A stretch of DNA of 60,169 bases, filler included, from Porpidia crustulata (taxonomy: Eukaryota): assembly GCA_964255105.1 (NCBI GenBank). It is 7 parts of 7 records of this genome, joined end to end, with 100 filler letters (N's around TTAATTAATTAA, not from the genome) between each part and the next. Parts side by side here need not be neighbours in the genome. Positions count along the whole stretch, not along the records: positions 17,279 to 25,804 come from CAXUWE010001102.1; 6 more parts are not named here. One strand, written 5' to 3'. Below are positions 8,540-51,698 of this stretch, piece by piece (the first letter of the stretch is position 1; the number at the start of each line of letters is the position of its first letter). The notes beneath the pieces were generated by a model. The model was not told where the DNA came from, ran no database searches, and saw only the letters and a list, made by a program, of their open reading frames with translations. A program made the translations under genes and the position numbers.

Positions 8540-8639
8540 NNNNNNNNNNNNNNNNNNNNNNNNNNNNNNNNNNNNNNNNNNNNTTAATTAATTAANNNNN
8601 NNNNNNNNNNNNNNNNNNNNNNNNNNNNNNNNNNNNNNN
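8540..8639. other. Artificial contig spacer
   Basis: 44 N + TTAATTAATTAA (stops in all six frames) + 44 N. Confidence 0.98.
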
Positions 8640-17178: not shown

Positions 17179-17278
17179 NNNNNNNNNNNNNNNNNNNNNN
17201 NNNNNNNNNNNNNNNNNNNNNNTTAATTAATTAANNNNNNNNNNNNNNNNNNNNNNNNNNNNNNNNNNNNNNNNNNNN
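17179..17278. other. Artificial contig spacer
   Basis: N44-TTAATTAATTAA-N44. Confidence 0.98.
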
Positions 17279-17902
17279 ACCCTCCTCCCCCAACAACCCC
17301 TCTACTTCCGCTTCGACACAATCTGCCTCCTCGTCCTCCTCCGGCCCAGCCAAACCTTCCGACTCGCCCTCCTCCACCTATCCAGCCGCTTCGCCCCACA
17401 GCGGCCGCCTACAATCCAAGCCACAACATCGACGTCCTGCAGCATCAATCGTAGCAGATGCACCAACGCCAGCCTTCATTCCAGGTACCGGTTCAGCTAC
17501 CCCAGCGGCCTCCGCAACAAGCTCCACTTCAGGGGCAGAATCAATTCCATCCCCAGCAGCAGCCTGAGTTCCATGGCCAATTCCCGCAGCAGCGCCAGAC
17601 TCAATATCCGGGACAGAATCAGCGGTGCCAAATCAGCCAAACCAGTGGAGTCAGCGTCGGTTTTGAGGGATTTAATTTAGTTTTTGCAAAATATGTAGAG
17701 TAGGGTAATCTCATAGGGGATCAGCCTTATCGCTCTTCTAGCTGTGAGCGGCCAGGGCTGATTATTAAGCTGACGTTGCCGTCGCTAAGGAATATGATTG
17801 GCTTACTTACTCAAGTCAACTTCAACATCTTCAATTGCAACTAAAATTGTTACACCTTGCTTCGAATTCTTTCCTCTTAGGCTAGATATTCTACTGCCCA
17901 CA

Positions 17903-18568
17903 ATGGTACGTATTCAGCCCGCTTTCCAAGCTTCATTGGCAACAAAACCACTGACTGCCTTGCGCGGCGCAGGTTCAAGGCCATCACGGGGTAGGCGGGT
18001 GGACCCAGAAACCAAATTACGACACCTACAAATCACCCTATGGACCTGCGTAAGTCGCTACACTCGGCTTTCTATATGCGACATGACTGCAATAATCAAA
18101 GGGAAATGCTGACTTGCTTTGTCCACCTACAGCTACAGAGTACAACCCAACTTCCATGGCATTGGGCCTAGCAGAGCAATGAGATTGTATTACCCCCAGT
18201 CTCCCCTTTATACCTCAATCGCCTTGGTGTCTCTGTATTCCGAGCTGGGTCAGCTGCGATGTACTGTTATCTCAGTCAACGAGCGATACCCCGTTTCCCC
18301 AAGCCCCGCCTCCCTGAACTCTCCCAACCCTTGGCTAATTCCGCCTCACTAGTGGCATAACGGCCGGATCCTTTGGTGCCGTCGCGGGCATCTTCGCTCT
18401 CTTCTTCTTCGGTGAGGTTCCTAAGGTTCGGAAGGACATAATGCAGAAGCTCCCGGTGATTGGCGATTACTTTGTGAGGGATGTACCTCCGGAGGATAAT
18501 GTGAGTGAAATGATGCCCACAAATACTGCTTTGAGGGCGTGGGTTGATGATTCTGGTAGCCGTTCTGA
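17903..18568 (+). CDS. QCR10: Cytochrome bc1 complex subunit 10 (five exons; not recovered as one ORF in the track)
   Basis: Spliced product MVQGHHGVGGWTQKPNYDTYKSPYGPAYRVQPNFHGIGPSRAMRFGITAGSFGAVAGIFALFFFGEVPKVRKDIMQKLPVIGDYFVRDVPPEDNPF; canonical GT-AG introns; typical C-terminal PPEDNPF. Confidence 0.9.
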
Positions 18569-19378
18569 TTCAAGCATATCTGTGGGCAGGAGGATGATTT
18601 GGGAGGAGGTGGAGGGCAGGTATAGATAAAGTTAGATTATACTGCAGCATCAACACAAACGGCGTTTTGCATAGTGCACTGGCCCTGGAGGGAGATGTAG
18701 ATAGGTGAAGTTTATCAAAACCATCCTTCAACCCGCATTATTTCTCATTGAGCTCCTTCACAATCATATTGCTCTATATGGGTCTTAACGGAAATACACC
18801 GATGGATGAAATCAAAGAGATGAAGAACACGATCTAGCAAATCCTCATGCCGTTTTTCCTCGCGTGAGGACGCCAAATTTGGTGCCATGTGATTTATCAA
18901 GGCCAAATGGGTTTTCGGAAAATGGTATCTGTAAAGCTTCATTTCTCCGAATTGAATTCCCTTAGGTCCGATAGTTATCTAGTGCCGAGAGTACCCTGAT
19001 GTTAGAGTAGCGTTGACAAGGATCTACGGGATCTTTAGGCTACAATAATATATGTTGATATTAATCGTCACCGCAGAATTGTAAATACAGTCCTTGATAA
19101 AGCATGCGGTCTGACAAACCCAATTAGATGATTTATCGTTTACATTGAACATACCGTAACGGTCTTCCATCAATTAGACATGAATCTACACCGGCAGCCT
19201 TAATGTCGATTTCCTACAAAGCTGAAGCCTTTCTAGGCTGCAATTCACCATAACATCCTATCTCACATCCCACCTAAGCGAATTGTTTTCAATTGGCGAC
19301 CCCATCGCAACAGATTTTCGTCAATCATACCTCTCTTACTTTTGTTGTCACAGATTCCCATCACCCACCGCAAGAGCC

Positions 19379-20059
19379 ATGTCTACAACCCAAACTCCAA
19401 TCTCTCTCAACATCCCCCCATTCCTTTCTCACCTCCGCGTACCTCTCTCCACTTTCCTTGCCCGCAATCCTCGCTACCAAGCCCTTGCGGTAGGCGCCTG
19501 TATATTCTTTCCCCCCGTCTCTCAAGAACCCTTACCAGCCTCCTCTCAACCCCCACGTCTTCTTCTCGTCCAGCGCGCGGCAACCGAATTCGCCTTCCCT
19601 AACCTCTGGGAATTTCCGGGCGGCTCCTCCGAGGCTTCCGATCCCACGGTGCTACACAGTGTTGCGCGCGAAGTCTTCGAGGAAACAGGCCTACTGGTCC
19701 GCCGTCTCAACAACCTTGTCGGCGAGGGTGTGGAGTTCGTCACCGGCACCGGCGACAACAAGAATACATGGCTGAAATTGACCATTGAGGTCGAAGTGGT
19801 TGAGATCCCTAACCACTCGCACCGTGATGGACCTACGAATGGCGCTAGTGGTGAGACAGCGGTAGATGAGGTGAGGATTACGTTGGACCCCGAGGAACAT
19901 CAACAATACGCGTGGGTGACGGAAGAGGACGTGAGACGGACGCCGGAGGAGGGGGGATATGAGATTATGACGGAGGAGCAGAGGGAGGTTATGCTACAGG
20001 CTTTTGGGATGAGGAAGGGTGGTGGGAAGGGGAGATTCTTGCCGCTGACGGCGGGATAG
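19379..20059 (+). CDS. Nudix hydrolase
   Basis: Nudix box WEFPGGSSEASDPTVLHSVAREVFEETGL; C-terminal LDPEEHQQYAWVT; first ATG at 19379. Confidence 0.9.
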   Translation: MSTTQTPISLNIPPFLSHLRVPLSTFLARNPRYQALAVGACIFFPPVSQEPLPASSQPPRLLLVQRAATEFAFPNLWEFPGGSSEASDPTVLHSVAREVFEETGLLVRRLNNLVGEGVEFVTGTGDNKNTWLKLTIEVEVVEIPNHSHRDGPTNGASGETAVDEVRITLDPEEHQQYAWVTEEDVRRTPEEGGYEIMTEEQREVMLQAFGMRKGGGKGRFLPLTAG

Positions 20060-20806
20060 GGGGTTTGCAATTAAATGGCATCATTGCAGGTTGAGAGTCT
20101 GCTTGGGTCGAGGTGTAGAGAGCGAGCTTAGCGGGAGGGACATGGAATCATTTGAACCCTAGAACAGCTGTCCTGAACCCTTGAACTATCTAGCTGCAAA
20201 AATTTGTCTTGCCCCTCAAATTTTGTTCAATTATCCAGTTGCAAGCTGTCCACTAGCACCTTTAAAGCGGCGGCCTCAAACCAGTCCAGAGTAGAACCTC
20301 CTAGTGCTCCTCATTTTAAGGACCTCAACCCTTTCCAACGACAACAAGGTGCGACTTGATCAAGTCGCAACGAGCTCAGGTGGTCAAGCTTTTCTCAGAA
20401 CAACGTGTGCAAGGGATGAAGAGAATAGTTCCCAATCGATGGCTTGTATTACGATCGGTCTCCTGAAGCACCACCAGCTCTCGCCTAATGCATCTTCGTT
20501 CTAAGACTGACAGCACGACCTGATGCAAGTGCTGGTAATATGCATGCCGCGTACCGCATGAGAAAGTCTCCTACACGAGTTGTGACATTTCATTGATAGC
20601 AAGCCAACCAGTCGGAGCTGTACAGTGGTTTACCAGGTCGATTCCGCCCATGAATGGCCATGAATGGGTGTAACGAAGCAAGACATTCGGCAAGTACAAT
20701 GTAATCCCTCTTCTACCTTGATTATGTTCCAACTTTGCCCGATCTTATACGACAGACTGTTGAACACTTTTGCCTCAAATTTCTAAGCAAGCCGTTCTAT
20801 TCAACA

Positions 20807-21502
20807 ATGAATCGTAAAAGCTACCAGTCTCTCAAATATTGGAGAATTCTAGTCCTGCCACTCGTGTTTGGACCACTCTTTTTGACGCTCCTTTACGCAA
20901 TCTTCGGTCCCTATATTGGCCTACGCTTCTCTAACTTGATCACAACGGTCCGATCTCACACTTGCGTTTCAGACCCTAGAACAACAATTTCATTTTCGGA
21001 CTACGAGGAATTCCAAAGCATAAGGACGGAGGCCAACCAGGTCTGGGATGCCATCTTAACACCGAATGGTGGACGCCTCTATCAAACCGACAGCAACGGC
21101 CGTAGATACGGCTCTGGGATATCCATGTTTCATCAATTACACTGCCTTCAAATGATTCGAACAAAGCTTCAAAACTTATCTTTCTCCAATGAGAGCTATG
21201 GCGATCCAGGAACAAGGCAGGCACAAGCACACCAGCATCATCTTGACGATGATCATGTGATGCACTGTCTGGACTACGTGAGGCAGGTAAGTAGACTAGC
21301 GAATTGGCTAAATTTTGAGCTCAAATAGGGAAATCGCTAATAGGGAAAGGGTATTTTGTGCTGCGCTGATGGCACCATTGAGCCTCCTAAGAGAACCAAG
21401 GATGGACGTGATATTGCCAACTACAAGCAACCGCATGTGTGCGGCAGTCCGGAGCGCCTATACTCGCTTTCTTTATTGTCAGATAACGACAACGGCCACT
21501 GA
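20807..21502 (+). CDS. DUF3328 / UstYa-like oxidase #1 (two exons)
   Basis: N-terminal TM segment; SMFHQLHCL and HVMHCLDYVRQ|GILCCADGTIE (two HxxHC motifs); intron about 21287-21349; C-terminal HVC motif. Confidence 0.92.
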
Positions 21503-23229
21503 AGCAGCAGCGTTTTTGGGGCATTATGCGATGATACCTGTTGCACCTTAGACGGTACACTACAAACAATAGCTTACTCCACTTTCAATATCACTGATCT
21601 AGATGGCCTACAGCAGTCGTATGCTCTGCAACAGTGCCTAGTATCTACGATCAGTCCCAATCAGGAAGGACATCTTGATTTCCATCCGGACAAGATAATG
21701 AACTATGTCCGGAACCCGCCGAGCTTTTCTGCGTGTCACCGCTGTGATGCAGCAAAATTTCTTTGCTGCTTTACTCAAAGGTTCTTGGCGCTACGAGTTC
21801 AGCTGCAAGGTTTTCTGCAAGTACGTTTCTTCACAGAGCGCTTGCGTGTCACCTGCCTGCAGTCCAGGCCTCGCCCTTTAGGAATGAGCATACAAAAGCA
21901 TGCATAAAGTATGTGTTGTTACTTGCGAAGGTTCCACGGTCTGAAAGTAAGTGATATACGGTAATCCGCCCTGTTGGTACCAGCTGGCAAGGACGACTAT
22001 ACGGCAAGATCCTTGGTATTACACTGCAGCTCTAGTATTGTTACTCAACCGATAGGACCTGCTATTTTGTGCTGCGTCAACTAGCTTAGCTAGGTTGCAC
22101 GATGAAGCTTACCTCAACGACTGACTGTCTCTCTGCATCTTTTCATAGCATCAAGCTACTTCTACGAGGTCACCGTCTGTATCCTGCAGGAGTCGTCAAC
22201 TGTTCATCGTTAAAGGCTTGCCTGCGATCTATGTTGTGTTATCTGCATGCAACTCAGGCTACTAATATTGCGGCCGTGCTGTTTCGTATTCTACTATTCA
22301 ATAGCGTACCACAAGTACCAAGAATCTGAAAGCTGTTACGCTGGTGCAGCCTGAAAGTTCATCGCACATTGGACTTCGAGGATTATCCAAAGCATGGGCA
22401 GTCACGCAGTCAAATGACGGTTGCTAAAGATCCTATGCATGTGGATAAGCGAGACATCTCAACTCGCCATGCATTAGCACCCGAGAGCTGTATGCGCTCA
22501 ATGCAATACCTCGTGCCTCGGTCCTAGACACTGATGTCCCACTACCCTTCCATCTCCCTCTGCCAAATTGGCGTTAAGATGATTCCGATAATGTGTCGAG
22601 GATTGGATTATGTGTAAGCTGCACTCTCGACGAGTTCCTCATTACTTGCATTCGAAATGCTAGGCTATTAGACACAATCGTCGTTACCACTGAAGACTAT
22701 AGTATTCTACGATGGGACACGCCGGAACAGCAGATCTAGTAATCTGAAGCGAACTTGAAGCGAACTGAACCTACCCGCATGGAGTAGCGTCATCTTCATA
22801 GTGAACCTATATTAAGGTAGGCAGGTACCTGACCATCTATGTTCACTCGGCTGGGAAGCAGTGCAAGCTGGTCGGCACCACGTCCGAGGCTGCAGCAGAT
22901 CAAAGCTTCAGAGCAAAGCATGCGGGCAATATAAAGAAGACGATATGCAGCTTCTGCAGCTGCACTCGTTGTGCAAGCACAGAGAAATAATTTGTAGCGG
23001 AGAACATATGACGTTACTAAACTATCACTAGACAAAGCAAAAACTCTTCAACGCCCGAACCTGCCGCTCCTCTCGAGTAGAATCCCCAGGCCTCGACAAC
23101 CGATTGTCGGGATCCTACGCCTCCCTCACTACCTTACTCATCTTCGAAGTCGGCATTCAGGCGCTTAACCTGAGAGAGTCTAAGCCAAACCGCTGTTAGA
23201 AGATATCCGAGTGCTTAGAGTTTGACGGC

Positions 23230-23594
23230 TCACACATTGGGATTTGCCTCGCGCTTAGCTTTGTCGTGTTCGTAGAGAACCATGCTGACGTCGTCTGCTC
23301 GTTTGGCCTTGTCGTGTTCGTAGAGTTTCATAACTAAATCTTCTGCTCGTTTGGCCTTGTCGTGTTCATAAAGGACCATGCTGGAATCTTCTGCGCGTTT
23401 GGCCTTGTCATGTTCATAGAGGACCATACTGGAATCCTCGGCGCGCTTGGCCAGATCTGCAGAGGTGTCAGAAGGTTCTGAGTTGAAAAAACCCGGCATA
23501 ACGAGATGAATGGATGACCTGTTGCTTGCAATGGAGCCGCTTGGATGAAGGGGCCAAGCATGGCCACAAAGGCCAGAATGAGCTTTGTCTGCAT
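23230..23594 (-). CDS. Kex2-processed repeat protein; putative dikaritin RiPP precursor, 100 aa, two exons (23594-23519, 23456-23230)
   Basis: Signal peptide MQTKLILAFVAMLGPFIQA; a 62-nt GT..CTGAC..CAG intron joins the two ORF-track frames; then four 16-aa units AEDSSMVLYEHDKAKR x2, AEDLVMKLYEHDKAKR, ADDVSMVLYEHDKAKR, and tail EANPNV. Confidence 0.9.
23251..23442 (-). repeat. 48-bp coding tandem repeat x4 (precursor core units)
   Basis: Four in-frame copies differing mostly at synonymous positions. Confidence 0.95.
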
Positions 23595-24983
23595 GACAGC
23601 TTGCTGGGCGGTTGAATATGTGTGGTTTCTGGCTAATGTTGAAGTAAGTGAAGACTGTTTATTTGATAAGCTGTTTGAAGAGACAAAGAAACATTGGAGA
23701 AATTCGATGATCTTGTACTTTGCTTTGAGTCATGCTTGAACCTTTCTGGGAACGATCTTGATCTCGTTTCTCTTGGCATGTAACCTTGCCAACACATATC
23801 CTAAAGGCCTGCGGAAATGGTACAATATTTGCATTTCAATCATGCATTTCATGCAGAAATTTCTCAGCTGCATGGTTGCAAGTTCTCGGAGGTCTCGTCT
23901 CATTGATTCCAAGCAGCTCCCTCTGTGATCATGCTGGAACATACAGCTTGTGCTGCAGTACGCATACATGCAAGATGGACTTCAAGAACTATGTCTGGAC
24001 ATGTTCGCTGATATGTATGTAGAGCATCTTGTGCTTAGCGAGCGCTACCGTGATGTCTTCAGACAAGAGACTACAGCATGTCAGGCCACGCTGTACGAGC
24101 AAAGCTATTCATTTCAGGAGACCAGCGCTGAAGGGACTAGGTCAATGTGCTCGAGAAGGTGATACGAGAATCCATATTTTTCGACCTATTTCACAATCAT
24201 GACGGCTAATACGAGTGGGGGGGTAAGGGTCGGAAGACTATTCATTCACTGCTAATACGATGCAAGTTGACAAACATTGAATCACTATTGATCCTTGGGA
24301 CCGGATACTTGACTTTGAGCTCCTAAATGAAGCAGACATTTCATATGTCTTTGTGGCACTTTGTTTCTATTCTTGGTTACCTCGCATCGTCCCAATTAGC
24401 TTTCACTTTTTTCAGCAGATCTGTTTCCCTTGAATGCTTTTTTCGAGTCTTTCTGCGGTCTATCTATGAAACGTTCGACTATCAGCAAACGTTCTTGTCC
24501 AGACATCATCAACGATAGAGACAGAAAAGCGGAAAGCAATACAACCGTAGGCATTCCCAGTAGCTTCTGTTCCAGAGGACGACGGAAAAACCACAAGCCG
24601 AATTTCCAAATATCATCTGCAGCTCGACTAATCGGGGAACTATTTGCAGGCTCTGGCCCACACAAGGGGAAGTGACACAGCCTAGCCAAATAAGGAGTAT
24701 CCGAACGTCAGTAGCCGAGACATGCACTGCAAGTCCACCAAGTATCGAGACCACAAGACCATATTAGCGTTGAGATCTCCTGTGGCCAAGGCGTTGCACA
24801 GATTCAGCATGCAGGCTCATAGTGTCGCAGGTCGTAGAGTTGTACTTGCATAAGACTTGCGACGTGGATGCTGCCCAAGACTTGACCATGTCGTCCGAGT
24901 CCAGCTCTGTGCCAGATATTTGACCAGTTCCATCTTCTTTGTCGGCATCTCATATCAACAGTTCACTGGAAAAACTCATACCG

Positions 24984-25804
24984 ATGTCGTTTTTCAAGTA
25001 CTTTGGCAATGGATTTCCTCAAAAGAATTATGACTTACTAGAAGAAATGTCTCGGGATCCATTTGATGAATCCCATTCCGTCAAAGCTCTTTATGATGAC
25101 GATGCCGTGCCTCTGAACCCGGATAAGTCGCCCGACCTGCTGCCACGATACGAAGAGAAGAAACCCAGGCGTGCTCACAAGCTGATCTACTGTTTCAACA
25201 TCGCTCTGTTCTGCTTCTCCCTCGTTCTTTTCTCGTTTTCCAGACCAGATCTCCTAGGATCTACAGATCCATTCAATAACACCCTGATCCGGGCAACGTC
25301 GAGGTACTGTGAGTCTTGCCACCAAATCCTCACTCAATGGCACCGATTAATGTTGGAACAGCACCAATTCTGGATCAAATCCACATCCCCCTCACGACAG
25401 TCAAAAGAAACGGCTCGTTCAGCCCAAGAGATCCTCCCTCCATCTACCGCCAAGATCCGAGTCCAGAAGTCGACGCCGCGTGGAAAAAGCTCTCGAACAT
25501 CAACACCATCCCCCTCAGCACCGCCGACGTCCTGAAGCGAGGTGCAGACCCATCCCAAACAGCAAGATTCCCCGAGCAATTCGGCTTTGGCCCGGATGCC
25601 CATATCGCAAGGATCGATGTTTTTCACCAGATCCACTGCTTGGTAATGAGCGCCCTGTTTCACCGCGTGACCGTTTTTCTGATATTGACGGTGCTAATAA
25701 CCCGCGCCAGAACGCCTTGCGAATGGAATTGTTCACAAACTTCCACCACTACTACGGCGGCAAATTCCCCTCCGACATCCCCACCCCATCGCACAAAGCC
25801 CACG
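24984..25804 (+). CDS. DUF3328 / UstYa-like oxidase #2, 3'-truncated by contig end
   Basis: TM segment (LIYCFNIALFCFSLVLFSF), YRQDPSPEVDAAW, DVFHQIHCL|NALR; ends at ...HKAH just where the second HxxHC motif is expected; two GT-AG introns. Confidence 0.92.
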
Positions 25805-25904
25805 NNNNNNNNNNNNNNNNNNNNNNNNNNNNNNNNNNNNNNNNNNNNTTAATTAATTAANNNNNNNNNNNNNNNNNNNNNNNNNNNNNNNNNNNNNNNN
25901 NNNN
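25805..25904. other. Artificial contig spacer
   Basis: N44-TTAATTAATTAA-N44. Confidence 0.98.
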
Positions 25905-34427: not shown

Positions 34428-34527
34428 NNNNNNNNNNNNNNNNNNNNNNNNNNNNNNNNNNNNNNNNNNNNTTAATTAATTAANNNNNNNNNNNNNNNNN
34501 NNNNNNNNNNNNNNNNNNNNNNNNNNN
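34428..34527. other. Artificial contig spacer
   Basis: N44-TTAATTAATTAA-N44. Confidence 0.98.
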
Positions 34528-43026: not shown

Positions 43027-43126
43027 NNNNNNNNNNNNNNNNNNNNNNNNNNNNNNNNNNNNNNNNNNNNTTAATTAATTAANNNNNNNNNNNNNNNNNN
43101 NNNNNNNNNNNNNNNNNNNNNNNNNN
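43027..43126. other. Artificial contig spacer
   Basis: N44-TTAATTAATTAA-N44. Confidence 0.98.
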
Positions 43127-51598: not shown

Positions 51599-51698
51599 NN
51601 NNNNNNNNNNNNNNNNNNNNNNNNNNNNNNNNNNNNNNNNNNTTAATTAATTAANNNNNNNNNNNNNNNNNNNNNNNNNNNNNNNNNNNNNNNNNNNN
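51599..51698. other. Artificial contig spacer
   Basis: N44-TTAATTAATTAA-N44. Confidence 0.98.

What the first reader, a model, noticed from the sequence alone, without database searches (positions are those of the whole stretch)
20807..25804. Candidate new dikaritin RiPP cluster: repeat precursor flanked by two DUF3328 oxidases
Seen: a secreted precursor with four KR-delimited repeats lies between two genes with HxxHC motifs and a membrane anchor, and is divergent from the second. Established: signal peptide + Kex2 repeats + UstYa/DUF3328 neighbours is the architecture of the ustiloxin (YAIG), phomopsin (YVIPID), asperipin-2a (FYYTGY) and victorin (GLKLAF) clusters. The ED...DK..KR flanks here echo those of UstA/PhomA. 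Inference: the core (about SSMVLYEH / LVMKLYEH / VSMVLYEH) matches none of these, so the product may be an undescribed cyclic peptide. The precursor is split by an intron across two frames, so it is easy to miss. The contig ends inside the second oxidase, and further tailoring or transport genes may lie beyond it.
Basis: partly seen in the sequence, partly recalled or inferred. Interest (0 to 1): 0.92.

Follow-up and report, generated by a model that had tools for sequence, protein, structure and literature searches.

The report
Fungal repeat-peptide gene with two copper oxidases
A small fungal gene encoding a secreted string of four near-identical short peptides sits between two membrane-bound copper-oxidase genes, which is the known layout for making ustiloxin-type modified peptides, but the peptide sequence here has not been described before.

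Summary
On one 8.5-kb fungal contig (window 17279-25804), a spliced gene for a 107-residue secreted precursor lies between two UstYa/DUF3328 genes. The precursor carries four 16-residue units of the form A-[E/D]-D-x-x-M-x-L-Y-E-H-D-K-A-K-R. Both flanking genes pass Pfam PF11807 above its cut-off.

A second, clearly diverged fungus keeps the same three genes together (synonymous sites saturated, dS about 1 or more). It is represented by eight near-identical metagenome loci. Its flanking DNA and genes are unrelated to the window's, and one oxidase gene is inverted.

L-Y-E-H-D-K-A-K-R is almost unchanged between the two fungi (pN 0.01 against pS 0.74). Copy number ranges from 4 to 13 among the eight loci. 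The frame-shifting 41-nt intron is supported by comparison: the relative has a 39-nt intron at the same GT and AG sites.

Within 10 kb in the relative I found no tyrosinase, methyltransferase, transporter or peptidase.

My reading is a minimal three-gene dikaritin-type (Kex2-repeat plus DUF3328) RiPP module with an unreported core. The product and its chemistry are untested, and no RNA data were found. It is a new member of a known kind: a published survey already counts 1758 repeat precursors with DUF3328 neighbours.

The parts
20807..21286 (+). Y1 (UstYa/DUF3328 oxidase 1), exon 1: 160 codons with a hydrophobic anchor at about residues 14-32, HQLHC at 109 and HVMHC at 150
   Evidence: PF11807 at 44.1 bits, E 2.9e-11. 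Motifs and hydropathy. 70% identical to the relative, dN/dS 0.19.
21287..21349 (+). Y1 intron, 63 nt (GTAAGT ... CTAAT ... AG). An alternative AG at 21343 would add two in-frame codons.
   Evidence: Read from the sequence. In L002 a 63-nt gap separates the two exon matches at the same place.
21350..21502 (+). Y1 exon 2, Cys-rich C-terminus and stop codon. The whole protein is 210 residues.
   Evidence: 74% identical to the relative, dN/dS 0.16.
23519..23594 (-). Precursor exon 1: signal-peptide-like N-terminus MQTKLILAFVAMLGPFIQAAPLQAT
   Evidence: 19 of 23 residues identical to P0001 and the loci; hydropathy; dN/dS 0.11. No signal-peptide predictor was available.
23478..23518 (-). Precursor intron, 41 nt (GTCATC ... 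CTCAG). Splicing is needed to join the signal peptide to the repeat frame.
   Evidence: The relative has a 39-nt intron at the same G|GTC and AG| sites, and the peptide after it is conserved (EPSDTSADLAKR against ENSNTAVDVATR). No RNA evidence.
23230..23477 (-). Precursor exon 2: short spacer ending in KR, four 16-residue units, tail EANPNV and stop codon
23251..23442 (-). The four 48-nt repeat units, each ending in a Kex2-type KR site
   Evidence: TRF period 48, 4.0 copies. Synonymous-only variation in 9 of 16 codon columns. Positions 8-16 give pN 0.01 against pS 0.74 versus the relative.
23595..24983 (.). Shared upstream region (1.39 kb) between the divergently transcribed precursor and Y2
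   Evidence: Gene orientation. No DNA similarity to the relative at E 1e-5. Its role as a common promoter is inferred.
24984..25308 (+). Y2 (UstYa/DUF3328 oxidase 2), exon 1: N-terminal region and hydrophobic anchor at about residues 67-85
   Evidence: 59-60% identical to the relative; hydropathy.
25362..25642 (+). Y2 exon 2, ending in HQIHCL
   Evidence: PF11807 at 69.1 bits, E 6.3e-19. 90% identical to the relative, dN/dS 0.04.
25711..25804 (+). Y2 exon 3, cut by the contig end at the first His of the second HxxHC motif
   Evidence: In L002 the exon continues with HVTHC, followed by an intron and a last exon matching PF11807 positions 170-220.

Best explanation
This is a minimal three-gene RiPP module of the dikaritin / ustiloxin type, in which a Kex2-processed repeat protein is paired with DUF3328 enzymes.

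Shown:
- The precursor gene is under purifying selection.
- It encodes a signal-peptide-like N-terminus followed by four KR-terminated 16-residue units.
- It is flanked by two mutually very divergent UstYa/DUF3328 genes. Each has an N-terminal membrane anchor and the copper-binding HxxHC motifs.
- The three genes stay together in a second, diverged fungus in which nothing else around them is shared.

Inferred steps:
1. The precursor enters the ER.
2. In the Golgi, Kex2 cuts after each KR and a carboxypeptidase removes the basic pair. This leaves A-[E/D]-D-x-x-M-x-L-Y-E-H-D-K-A.
3. The lumenal, O2-dependent binuclear-copper domains of Y1 and Y2 oxidise C-H bonds of the core. The most likely reaction is an ether cross-link from the invariant Tyr to a nearby beta-carbon. 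By analogy with Tyr(i)-Ile(i+2) in ustiloxin and phomopsin, the invariant His at +2 is the favoured partner.
4. The second enzyme adds a further cross-link, hydroxylation or desaturation.
5. Exopeptidases encoded elsewhere trim the ED and DKA flanks, and the small modified peptide is secreted.
For: Architecture:
- PF11807 is matched above cut-off on both neighbours.
- Motifs and membrane anchors are present.
- The 48-nt unit is present in four copies.

Selection:
- Within the window, 9 of 16 codon columns vary only synonymously.
- Against the relative, dS is about 1.0-1.7 while dN/dS is 0.19 and 0.16 (Y1), 0.04 (Y2 exon 2) and 0.11 (precursor exon 1).
- For repeat positions 8-16, pN is 0.01 against pS 0.74.

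Linkage:
- blastn of the whole 8.5-kb contig against the loci aligns only the three genes and the precursor's 3' end (rows read for L002 and L008).
- The window's NUDIX neighbour is in 0 of 8 loci.
- Y1 is inverted relative to the other two genes, yet still adjacent.

Literature:
- DUF3328 genes peak at the position next to KEP genes, and 65.6% of DUF3328-linked KEP repeats contain Tyr (PMC7329392, passages).
- UstA cores are flanked by ED and KR. UstYa/UstYb are mutual homologues that are both required, and AprY alone makes asperipin-2a (PMC6514808, passages).
- The DUF3328 protein GigB is needed for epichloecyclins (PMC10540207, abstract and passages).
- CctR shows that DUF3328 is a membrane-anchored, lumenal, O2-dependent binuclear-copper enzyme using HxxHC(x)nHxxHC (PMC12435403, abstract and passages).
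Against: - There is no chemical evidence and no RNA evidence, so the product is unknown.
- Only two independent lineages carry the module. The eight loci are 95-99.98% identical to each other (4 of the 7 other loci compared with L002), so they count as one lineage.
- The precursor intron is very short (41 nt) and has an atypical GTCATC donor.
- No tyrosinase, transporter, peptidase or methyltransferase was seen on the contig or within 10 kb in the relative. Only ORFs of 75 residues or more were screened.
- Tyrosinase is required for ustiloxin and phomopsin cyclisation.
- The Y2 subfamily is widespread at about 55-72% identity in many Ascomycota, so Y2 may have a role that is not specific to this peptide.
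- DUF3328 enzymes also hydroxylate, halogenate and act in NRPS and PKS pathways, so cyclisation is not assured.
- Y2 is incomplete in the window.
Confidence: 0.65

Rival explanations
1. The module is a RiPP module, but the two DUF3328 enzymes do not make a macrocycle. They hydroxylate, halogenate or desaturate side chains of a peptide that stays linear.
For: DUF3328 members catalyse hydroxylation (CctR), halogenation and isomerisation as well as macrocyclisation (PMC12435403; PMC12048977 section 22). No tyrosinase is nearby.
Against: In every characterised KEP-linked case that I read about, the DUF3328 protein is tied to cyclisation through Tyr: ustiloxin, asperipin-2a, phomopsin and epichloecyclin. 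The core also has an invariant Tyr.
Confidence: 0.2
2. The precursor is an ordinary Kex2-processed repeat protein giving unmodified linear peptides (signal or pheromone-like). The two DUF3328 genes act on another substrate and are neighbours for other reasons.
For: 78% of surveyed KEPs have no DUF3328 neighbour, and many are pheromones (PMC7329392). The protein-atlas feature search lists an alpha-factor-type cluster among its near hits at 0.84, which is below the tool's 0.9 bar and so only a lead. The Y2 subfamily is widespread.
Against: The three genes are the only DNA shared between two fungi whose synonymous sites are saturated, and they stay adjacent despite an inversion and different flanks. 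No MF_alpha Pfam match was found. Y1 is a rare subfamily whose closest relatives come from the same module.
Confidence: 0.12
3. The locus is a decaying or silent relic, or a gene-model artefact, and makes no product.
For: No RNA holder was listed. The donor site is atypical. Y2 cannot be read to its end in the window.
Against: All three genes show low dN/dS, and all exons are intact in both fungi. Repeat arrays are expanded (4 to 13 units) without loss of frame in the relative.
Confidence: 0.03

Closest known systems
Asperipin-2a cluster of Aspergillus flavus (aprA, aprY, aprR, aprT)
   Same: A small cluster in which a KR-repeat precursor is modified by DUF3328 enzyme(s) without a tyrosinase. 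The core is rich in Tyr (PMC6514808).
   Different: It has one DUF3328 gene rather than two, and it also has a reductase and a transporter, which were not found here. Its core is FYYTGY, against x-x-M-x-L-Y-E-H here.
Ustiloxin B cluster (ustA, ustYa, ustYb, ustQ and others)
   Same: It has two mutually divergent DUF3328 paralogues next to the precursor. The repeat units have an acidic ED before the core and KR at the end. The precursor has a signal peptide (PMC6514808; PMC7329392).
   Different: Ustiloxin needs the tyrosinase UstQ and has many tailoring genes (P450, FMOs, PLP enzyme, methyltransferase). It has 16 units and the four-residue core YAIG. None of these accessory genes was seen on the contig or within 10 kb in the relative. 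The only flavin monooxygenase lies 5.6 kb beyond Y1 in L008.
Epichloecyclin cluster (gigA, gigB, gigC, kexB) of Epichloe festucae
   Same: A compact cluster of about 7.7 kb with a multi-core secreted precursor and a DUF3328 protein required for the cyclic product (PMC10540207).
   Different: It has a dedicated subtilisin (KexB) and a SET-domain methyltransferase and only one DUF3328 gene. Its core is unrelated (for example INFKIPYT).
CctR, the DUF3328 hydroxylase of cyclochlorotine
   Same: It has an N-terminal disordered region, a single transmembrane helix and a lumenal helical domain with HxxHC(x)nHxxHC binding two coppers (PMC12435403). Y1 and Y2 show the same layout.
   Different: CctR acts on a non-ribosomal cyclic peptide and hydroxylates it.
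Kex2-processed repeat proteins (KEPs) in general, including yeast alpha-factor
   Same: They share a signal peptide and tandem units ending in KR (PMC7329392).
   Different: Pheromone-type KEPs almost never have DUF3328 neighbours. No MF_alpha Pfam match was found here.

Membership tests
Dikaritin / ust-RiPS type cluster (KEP precursor plus DUF3328) | Precursor with an N-terminal ER signal peptide | tested here: inconclusive
   A hydrophobic N-terminus (MQTK + LILAFVAMLGPFI + QAAP) is conserved at 19 of 23 residues in the relative. No signal-peptide predictor was available, so this rests on inspection.
Dikaritin / ust-RiPS type cluster (KEP precursor plus DUF3328) | Tandem repeated core units, each bounded by a dibasic Kex2 site (KR) | tested here: met
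   Four 16-residue units each end in KR, and a KR precedes the first unit. The relative has 4-13 such units.
Dikaritin / ust-RiPS type cluster (KEP precursor plus DUF3328) | At least one DUF3328/UstYa gene close to the precursor gene | tested here: met
   There are two, at 1.7 kb and 1.4 kb, both above the PF11807 cut-off. The same pair is present in the relative.
Dikaritin / ust-RiPS type cluster (KEP precursor plus DUF3328) | Macrocyclic product with a side-chain cross-link from an aromatic residue | not testable with these tools
   This needs LC-MS/NMR of the product. Only the invariant Tyr in the core is shown.
Ustiloxin / phomopsin subtype | Tyrosinase (UstQ/PhomQ) in the cluster and a Y-x-I core | tested here: not met
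   No tyrosinase domain was found among ORFs of 75 residues or more in L002 (76 of 81 ORFs scanned; the 5 left out overlap the precursor repeats) or in the 36 of 88 L008 ORFs scanned. The core has Y-E-H, not Y-x-I. The genome outside these stretches could not be searched.
DUF3328 / UstYa (Pfam PF11807) copper enzymes | Score above the Pfam gathering cut-off | tested here: met
   Y1 scores 44.1 bits and Y2 scores 69.1 bits against a cut-off of 25.
DUF3328 / UstYa (Pfam PF11807) copper enzymes | HxxHC(x)nHxxHC motif and a single N-terminal transmembrane helix | tested here: met
   Y1 has HQLHC at 109, HVMHC at 150 and an anchor at 14-32. Y2 has HQIHC at 197 and an anchor at 67-85. Y2's second motif is cut by the contig end in the window, but HVTHC is present in L002.
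Yeast alpha-factor / fungal pheromone KEPs | MF_alpha / MF_alpha_N Pfam domains, no DUF3328 neighbour | tested here: not met
   No MF_alpha match at E up to 1. Two DUF3328 neighbours are present.

The most novel reading that the evidence does not exclude
The product may be a structurally new fungal RiPP whose ring or rings involve the invariant Tyr together with His, and possibly Met. That would be a Tyr-His or Tyr-C-beta(His) link not seen in ustiloxins, phomopsins or asperipin. It would be made by two copper enzymes alone, without a tyrosinase. The conserved core M-x-L-Y-E-H-D is a run of metal-ligand residues, so the peptide could serve in metal (copper) binding or uptake in rock-dwelling or lichen-type fungi rather than as a toxin. 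The eight related loci come from Antarctic cryptoendolithic metagenomes, where the gene's copy number is polymorphic.
Probability: 0.15. Interest if true: 0.75.

Novelty: new member of a known kind. Interest (0 to 1): 0.45.

Why it matters
- Only a handful of the many predicted KEP-plus-DUF3328 loci have a known product. This one is unusually small (three genes) and has a conserved core with an acidic, His- and Met-containing sequence unlike the known cores. That makes it a practical target for heterologous expression and for asking what two DUF3328 copper enzymes can do without a tyrosinase.
- Its best named enzyme relatives include lichen-forming fungi (Xylographa, Umbilicaria). A recent survey of lichen RiPP clusters reported that no repeat precursor could be found in its two conserved clans (PMC12048977, section 22).
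- If the window's fungus is of that group, which I could not establish, this would be a clear example of a precursor-bearing dikaritin-type cluster there.
- The case also shows that such precursors are missed when a short frame-shifting intron splits them.

Tried and rejected
- **Whole genome.** None is held for this window, so tyrosinase, Kex2, transporters or further copies elsewhere could not be sought.
- **Cluster members of P0001.** The database was switched off.
- **Sequencing runs.** One holder, X1, has 0.99 of the words. No RNA holder was listed, so there is no expression evidence either way.
- **Extending the contig with X1.** Its two contig pieces (17300-25566 and 25539-25770) do not run past the contig end, so the contig could not be extended.
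- **Solved structures.** Zero matches for Y1 exon 1 and Y2 exon 2 at E up to 10.
- **Protein atlas.** It was busy twice and does not hold the window's peptide. For the stored homologue P0001, all feature scores are under 0.9 (0.86-0.84) and all structural TM-scores under 0.5 on a pLDDT 0.49 model. These are leads only.
- **Pfam on precursor exon 2.** It gave five hits, all below their cut-offs (Prp19, RNase_H2_suC, TPR_15, YueH, Fer4_RLI). I treat them as noise from the repeats.
- **A longer 62-nt intron ending at the next AG, with a good CTGAC branch site.** I considered it and rejected it, because the 21 nt it would remove encode a stretch conserved at protein level in the relative.
- **Unspliced reading from the ATG.** It stays open for 108 codons in another frame of the repeats. 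I rejected it because in the relative the ATG frame runs into the LYEH frame, and the other frames there carry stops.
- **Y2 exon 1 dN/dS.** Not computed; my coordinates gave unequal lengths (error) and I dropped it. Y2 exon 3 has too few sites (pS above 0.75).
- **Ding et al. 2016 (PNAS, dikaritins).** Not held, so its list of predicted cores was not checked.
- **Earlier findings of this scan.** Nothing on this genome or sequence. The word search returned only unrelated bacterial and archaeal repeat peptides.


Full report
**1. What the window is**

The 60,169-base window is not one stretch of genome. It consists of seven contigs of 8,539 to 8,471 bases in order of falling length, joined by N44-TTAATTAATTAA-N44 linkers. 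Genes on the other six pieces are therefore not neighbours of the finding. Those pieces carry fungal-specific Pfam families (Fungal_trans, RRM_fung), so the assembly is from a fungus. The finding lies on the third contig, 17279-25804. No whole genome is held for the window.

**2. The observation**

*Precursor.* On the minus strand an ATG at 23594 opens MQTKLILAFVAMLGPFIQAAPLQAT. A 41-nt stretch, GTCATC...CTCAG (23518-23478), then has to be removed to reach the frame that reads EPSDTSADLAKR. Four 16-residue units, the tail EANPNV and a stop at 23230 follow. The spliced protein has 107 residues.

Tandem Repeats Finder reports a 48-nt period with 4.0 copies and 82% matches. The units are AEDSSMVLYEHDKAKR (twice), AEDLVMKLYEHDKAKR and ADDVSMVLYEHDKAKR. 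In 9 of the 16 codon columns the copies differ only synonymously, and amino-acid differences are confined to positions 2, 4, 5 and 7. That pattern is expected for a translated, selected peptide. It is not expected for a chance repeat or for another reading frame.

*Flanking genes.* Y1 runs 20807-21286 and 21350-21502 on the plus strand and has 210 residues. Y2 runs 24984-25308, 25362-25642 and 25711 onward on the plus strand. Of the seven exon translations I gave to Pfam, two matched PF11807 (UstYa) above its 25-bit cut-off: Y1 exon 1 at 44.1 bits and Y2 exon 2 at 69.1 bits. The other five had nothing above cut-off.

- Y1 has a hydrophobic anchor at about residues 14-32, with HQLHC at residue 109 and HVMHC at residue 150.
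- Y2 has an anchor at about residues 67-85 and HQIHC at residue 197.
- The contig ends at the first His of what should be Y2's second motif.
- Y1 and Y2 are only faintly alike, with 12 of 34 residues identical around the first motif.
- The precursor and Y2 are transcribed divergently, 1.39 kb apart. Y1 converges on the precursor's 3' end.

**3. Relatives**

A search of the 5.8-billion-protein collection with precursor exon 2 found one relative among 2,686 candidates. It is P0001, 120 residues and 72% identical. A scan of metagenome contigs with the pattern YEHDKAK gave 160 pattern matches, of which 8 encode a relative (L001-L008, contigs up to 334 kb).

These eight loci are 95-99.98% identical to one another (L002 was compared with 4 of the other 7). 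They therefore stand for one fungal species or population, not eight independent cases. Their accession prefixes appear in an announcement of Antarctic cryptoendolithic metagenomes (PMC7171226; I saw the search listing only).

tblastn with the window's exons finds the precursor in 8 of 8 loci, Y2 in 7 of 8 and Y1 in 7 of 8. The two misses (L007 for Y2, L004 for Y1) are places where the contig ends. The window's NUDIX neighbour is in 0 of 8 loci.

blastn of the entire 8.5-kb contig against the loci aligns only the three genes, at 70-82% identity, plus about 130 nt after the precursor's stop. No intergenic or flanking DNA aligns (rows read for L002 and L008). Y1 is inverted relative to the precursor-Y2 pair when the two fungi are compared, yet it remains the next gene.

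**4. Selection**

| Region (window against L002) | dS | dN/dS |
|---|---|---|
| Y1 exon 1 | 1.03 | 0.19 |
| Y1 exon 2 | 1.01 | 0.16 |
| Y2 exon 2 | 1.67 | 0.04 |
| Precursor exon 1 | 0.92 | 0.11 |

Synonymous sites are close to saturation throughout. Over all pairs of repeat units (4 by 10), mean pS is 0.74 and mean pN is 0.12. For positions 8-16 (LYEHDKAKR), pN is 0.01. Two fungi that have diverged this far have therefore kept M-x-L-Y-E-H-D-K-[A/V]-K-R intact.

The relative's units are mostly GEDASMALYEHDKAKR and AEEASMALYEHDKAKR. Unit number varies among the eight loci: 4, 5, 11, 11, 11, 12 and 13, with at least 11 in the cut L004.

**5. The intron**

In the relative, the stretch between the homologous G|GTC donor and AG| acceptor is 39 nt. 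It happens to be in frame and free of stops, which is why P0001 was called as one ORF. In the window the stretch is 41 nt and shifts the frame. Exon 1 is one codon longer in the relative.

Splicing at the homologous sites gives matching proteins (...APLQAT-E-PSDTSADLAKR against ...APLRVAE-E-NSNTAVDVATR), and no other reading does. The peptide after the acceptor is conserved. This argues against a longer 62-nt intron ending at the next AG. The relative has a further intron inside its last unit (RLYE | HDKTKSKREANLNA) that the window lacks.

The Y1 and Y2 intron positions are also shared, and their lengths differ by numbers that are not multiples of three (Y2: 53 and 68 nt against 52 and 52 nt). 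This is good comparative support for the gene models, but it is not RNA evidence. The one public run that holds the DNA is not RNA.

**6. What lies beyond**

In L002, Y2 continues with HVTHC, an intron and a last exon that matches PF11807 positions 170-220. Beyond Y2 come a 570-residue ORF with no Pfam family and a mitochondrial-type release factor (PCRF/RF-1).

Beyond Y1, none of the scanned ORFs of 75 residues or more has a Pfam match in L002. I scanned 76 of its 81 ORFs; the five left out overlap the precursor repeats. In L008, where I scanned 36 of 88 ORFs, the first recognisable gene is a flavin monooxygenase 5.6 kb away. No tyrosinase, methyltransferase, transporter or peptidase was seen. 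Small exons would escape this screen. The module therefore appears to be three genes.

**7. The enzymes' families**

The Y2 subfamily is widespread: 49 proteins at E 1e-5 or better among 113 candidates. The best named hit is from Xylographa parallela at 72%. Umbilicaria vellea, Pseudogymnoascus, Botrytis, Alternaria and Aspergillus follow at about 45-63%.

Y1 is rarer. The word-based search gave 5 proteins among 18 candidates: the window's own protein, then 70%, 65%, 43% and 41%. The exhaustive search of 1.84 billion representatives gave 359 hits at E 0.001 or better, but only one at E 1e-30 or better, with listed identities of at most 50% (47% for the best-scoring hit). Neither protein has a solved relative.

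The named hits hint at Lecanoromycetes or Leotiomycetes, but I could not establish the taxon.

**8. Mechanism**

The architecture is that of ustiloxin-type RiPPs.

- UstA has a signal peptide and cores flanked by ED and KR. UstYa and UstYb are mutual DUF3328 homologues that are both needed, and AprY alone builds asperipin-2a (PMC6514808, passages).
- GigB (DUF3328) is required for epichloecyclins (PMC10540207, abstract and passages).
- CctR shows the family to be membrane-anchored, lumenal, O2-dependent binuclear-copper enzymes that use HxxHC(x)nHxxHC (PMC12435403, abstract and passages).

I therefore infer the following sequence: ER entry, Kex2 cleavage after KR, oxidative modification of the unit by Y1 and Y2 in the secretory pathway, trimming and secretion. 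The most likely reaction is a Tyr-based ether macrocycle. By analogy with Y(i)-I(i+2), the invariant His at +2 is the favoured partner. Position -2 is variable (V, K, A or R) and so is a poor candidate. None of these steps is shown.

**9. Comparison and novelty**

The module meets the defining genomic features of the KEP-plus-DUF3328 (dikaritin-type) class. It fails the ustiloxin/phomopsin subtype, having no tyrosinase and no Y-x-I core. In gene content it is closest to the asperipin-2a and epichloecyclin clusters, but it has two DUF3328 genes and nothing else.

The core strings were not found in the full-text library (0 papers) or in the three held supplement files of the KEP survey (0 files). 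Long files may have been cut when stored. Ding et al. 2016 was not available.

Genome mining has already counted 1758 KEPs with DUF3328 neighbours among 7878, in 838 types plus 2560 singletons (PMC7329392). This is therefore a new member of a known kind. It is of moderate interest for its compactness, its unusual metal-ligand-rich core and its occurrence in a rock-dwelling community fungus.

Noticed in passing
window 8540-8639, 17179-17278, 25805-25904, 34428-34527, 43027-43126, 51599-51698: The window is seven separate contigs of about 8.5 kb, sorted by falling length and joined by N44-TTAATTAATTAA-N44 linkers. Genes on different pieces are not neighbours.
   Followed up: yes
L001-L008, precursor gene (for example L002:9719-10560): Repeat number is polymorphic among near-identical metagenome loci (4, 5, 11, 11, 11, 12 and 13 units). 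L004-L007 carry an aberrant 22-residue unit (GEDASMVLYDNMALYEHDKAKR) that looks like a partial internal duplication.
   Followed up: partly
L002:10400-10560 and the same place in the other loci: The relative has an extra intron inside its last repeat unit (after RLYE). The window's gene lacks it, so an intron has been gained or lost within a repeat.
   Followed up: partly
window 20807-21502 against L002:12539-13231: Y1 is inverted relative to the precursor-Y2 pair between the two fungi, but it stays the adjacent gene.
   Followed up: yes
L007:2841-3319: The N-terminus of Y1 matches in two different frames in this locus. This suggests a frameshift or an assembly error in that one metagenome contig.
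   Followed up: no
L002:13985-17279: An insertion or deletion of about 3.3 kb just beyond Y1 distinguishes L002 from L008 and L003. No Pfam family was found in its ORFs.
   Followed up: partly
L008:18698-20296: A flavin-containing monooxygenase (FMO-like / Pyr_redox_3) lies 5.6 kb beyond Y1 in the relative. Ustiloxin clusters contain FMOs, but this one is not present on the window's contig, and its link to the module is unknown.
   Followed up: no
L002:4680-6389 (minus strand), P0002: A 570-residue ORF with no Pfam family lies directly beyond Y2 in the relative, on the same strand. The atlas query for it did not complete.
   Followed up: partly
window 19379-20059: A NUDIX hydrolase gene lies upstream of Y1 on the same contig. 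It has no counterpart in the related loci. The start of the contig (17279-17700) reads as Pro/Gln-rich low-complexity ORFs.
   Followed up: partly
window 23334-23594 (minus strand): Without splicing, the ATG frame stays open for 108 codons through another frame of the repeats (...PAWSFMNTTRPN...). A gene caller that ignores introns would therefore report a wrong protein here.
   Followed up: yes
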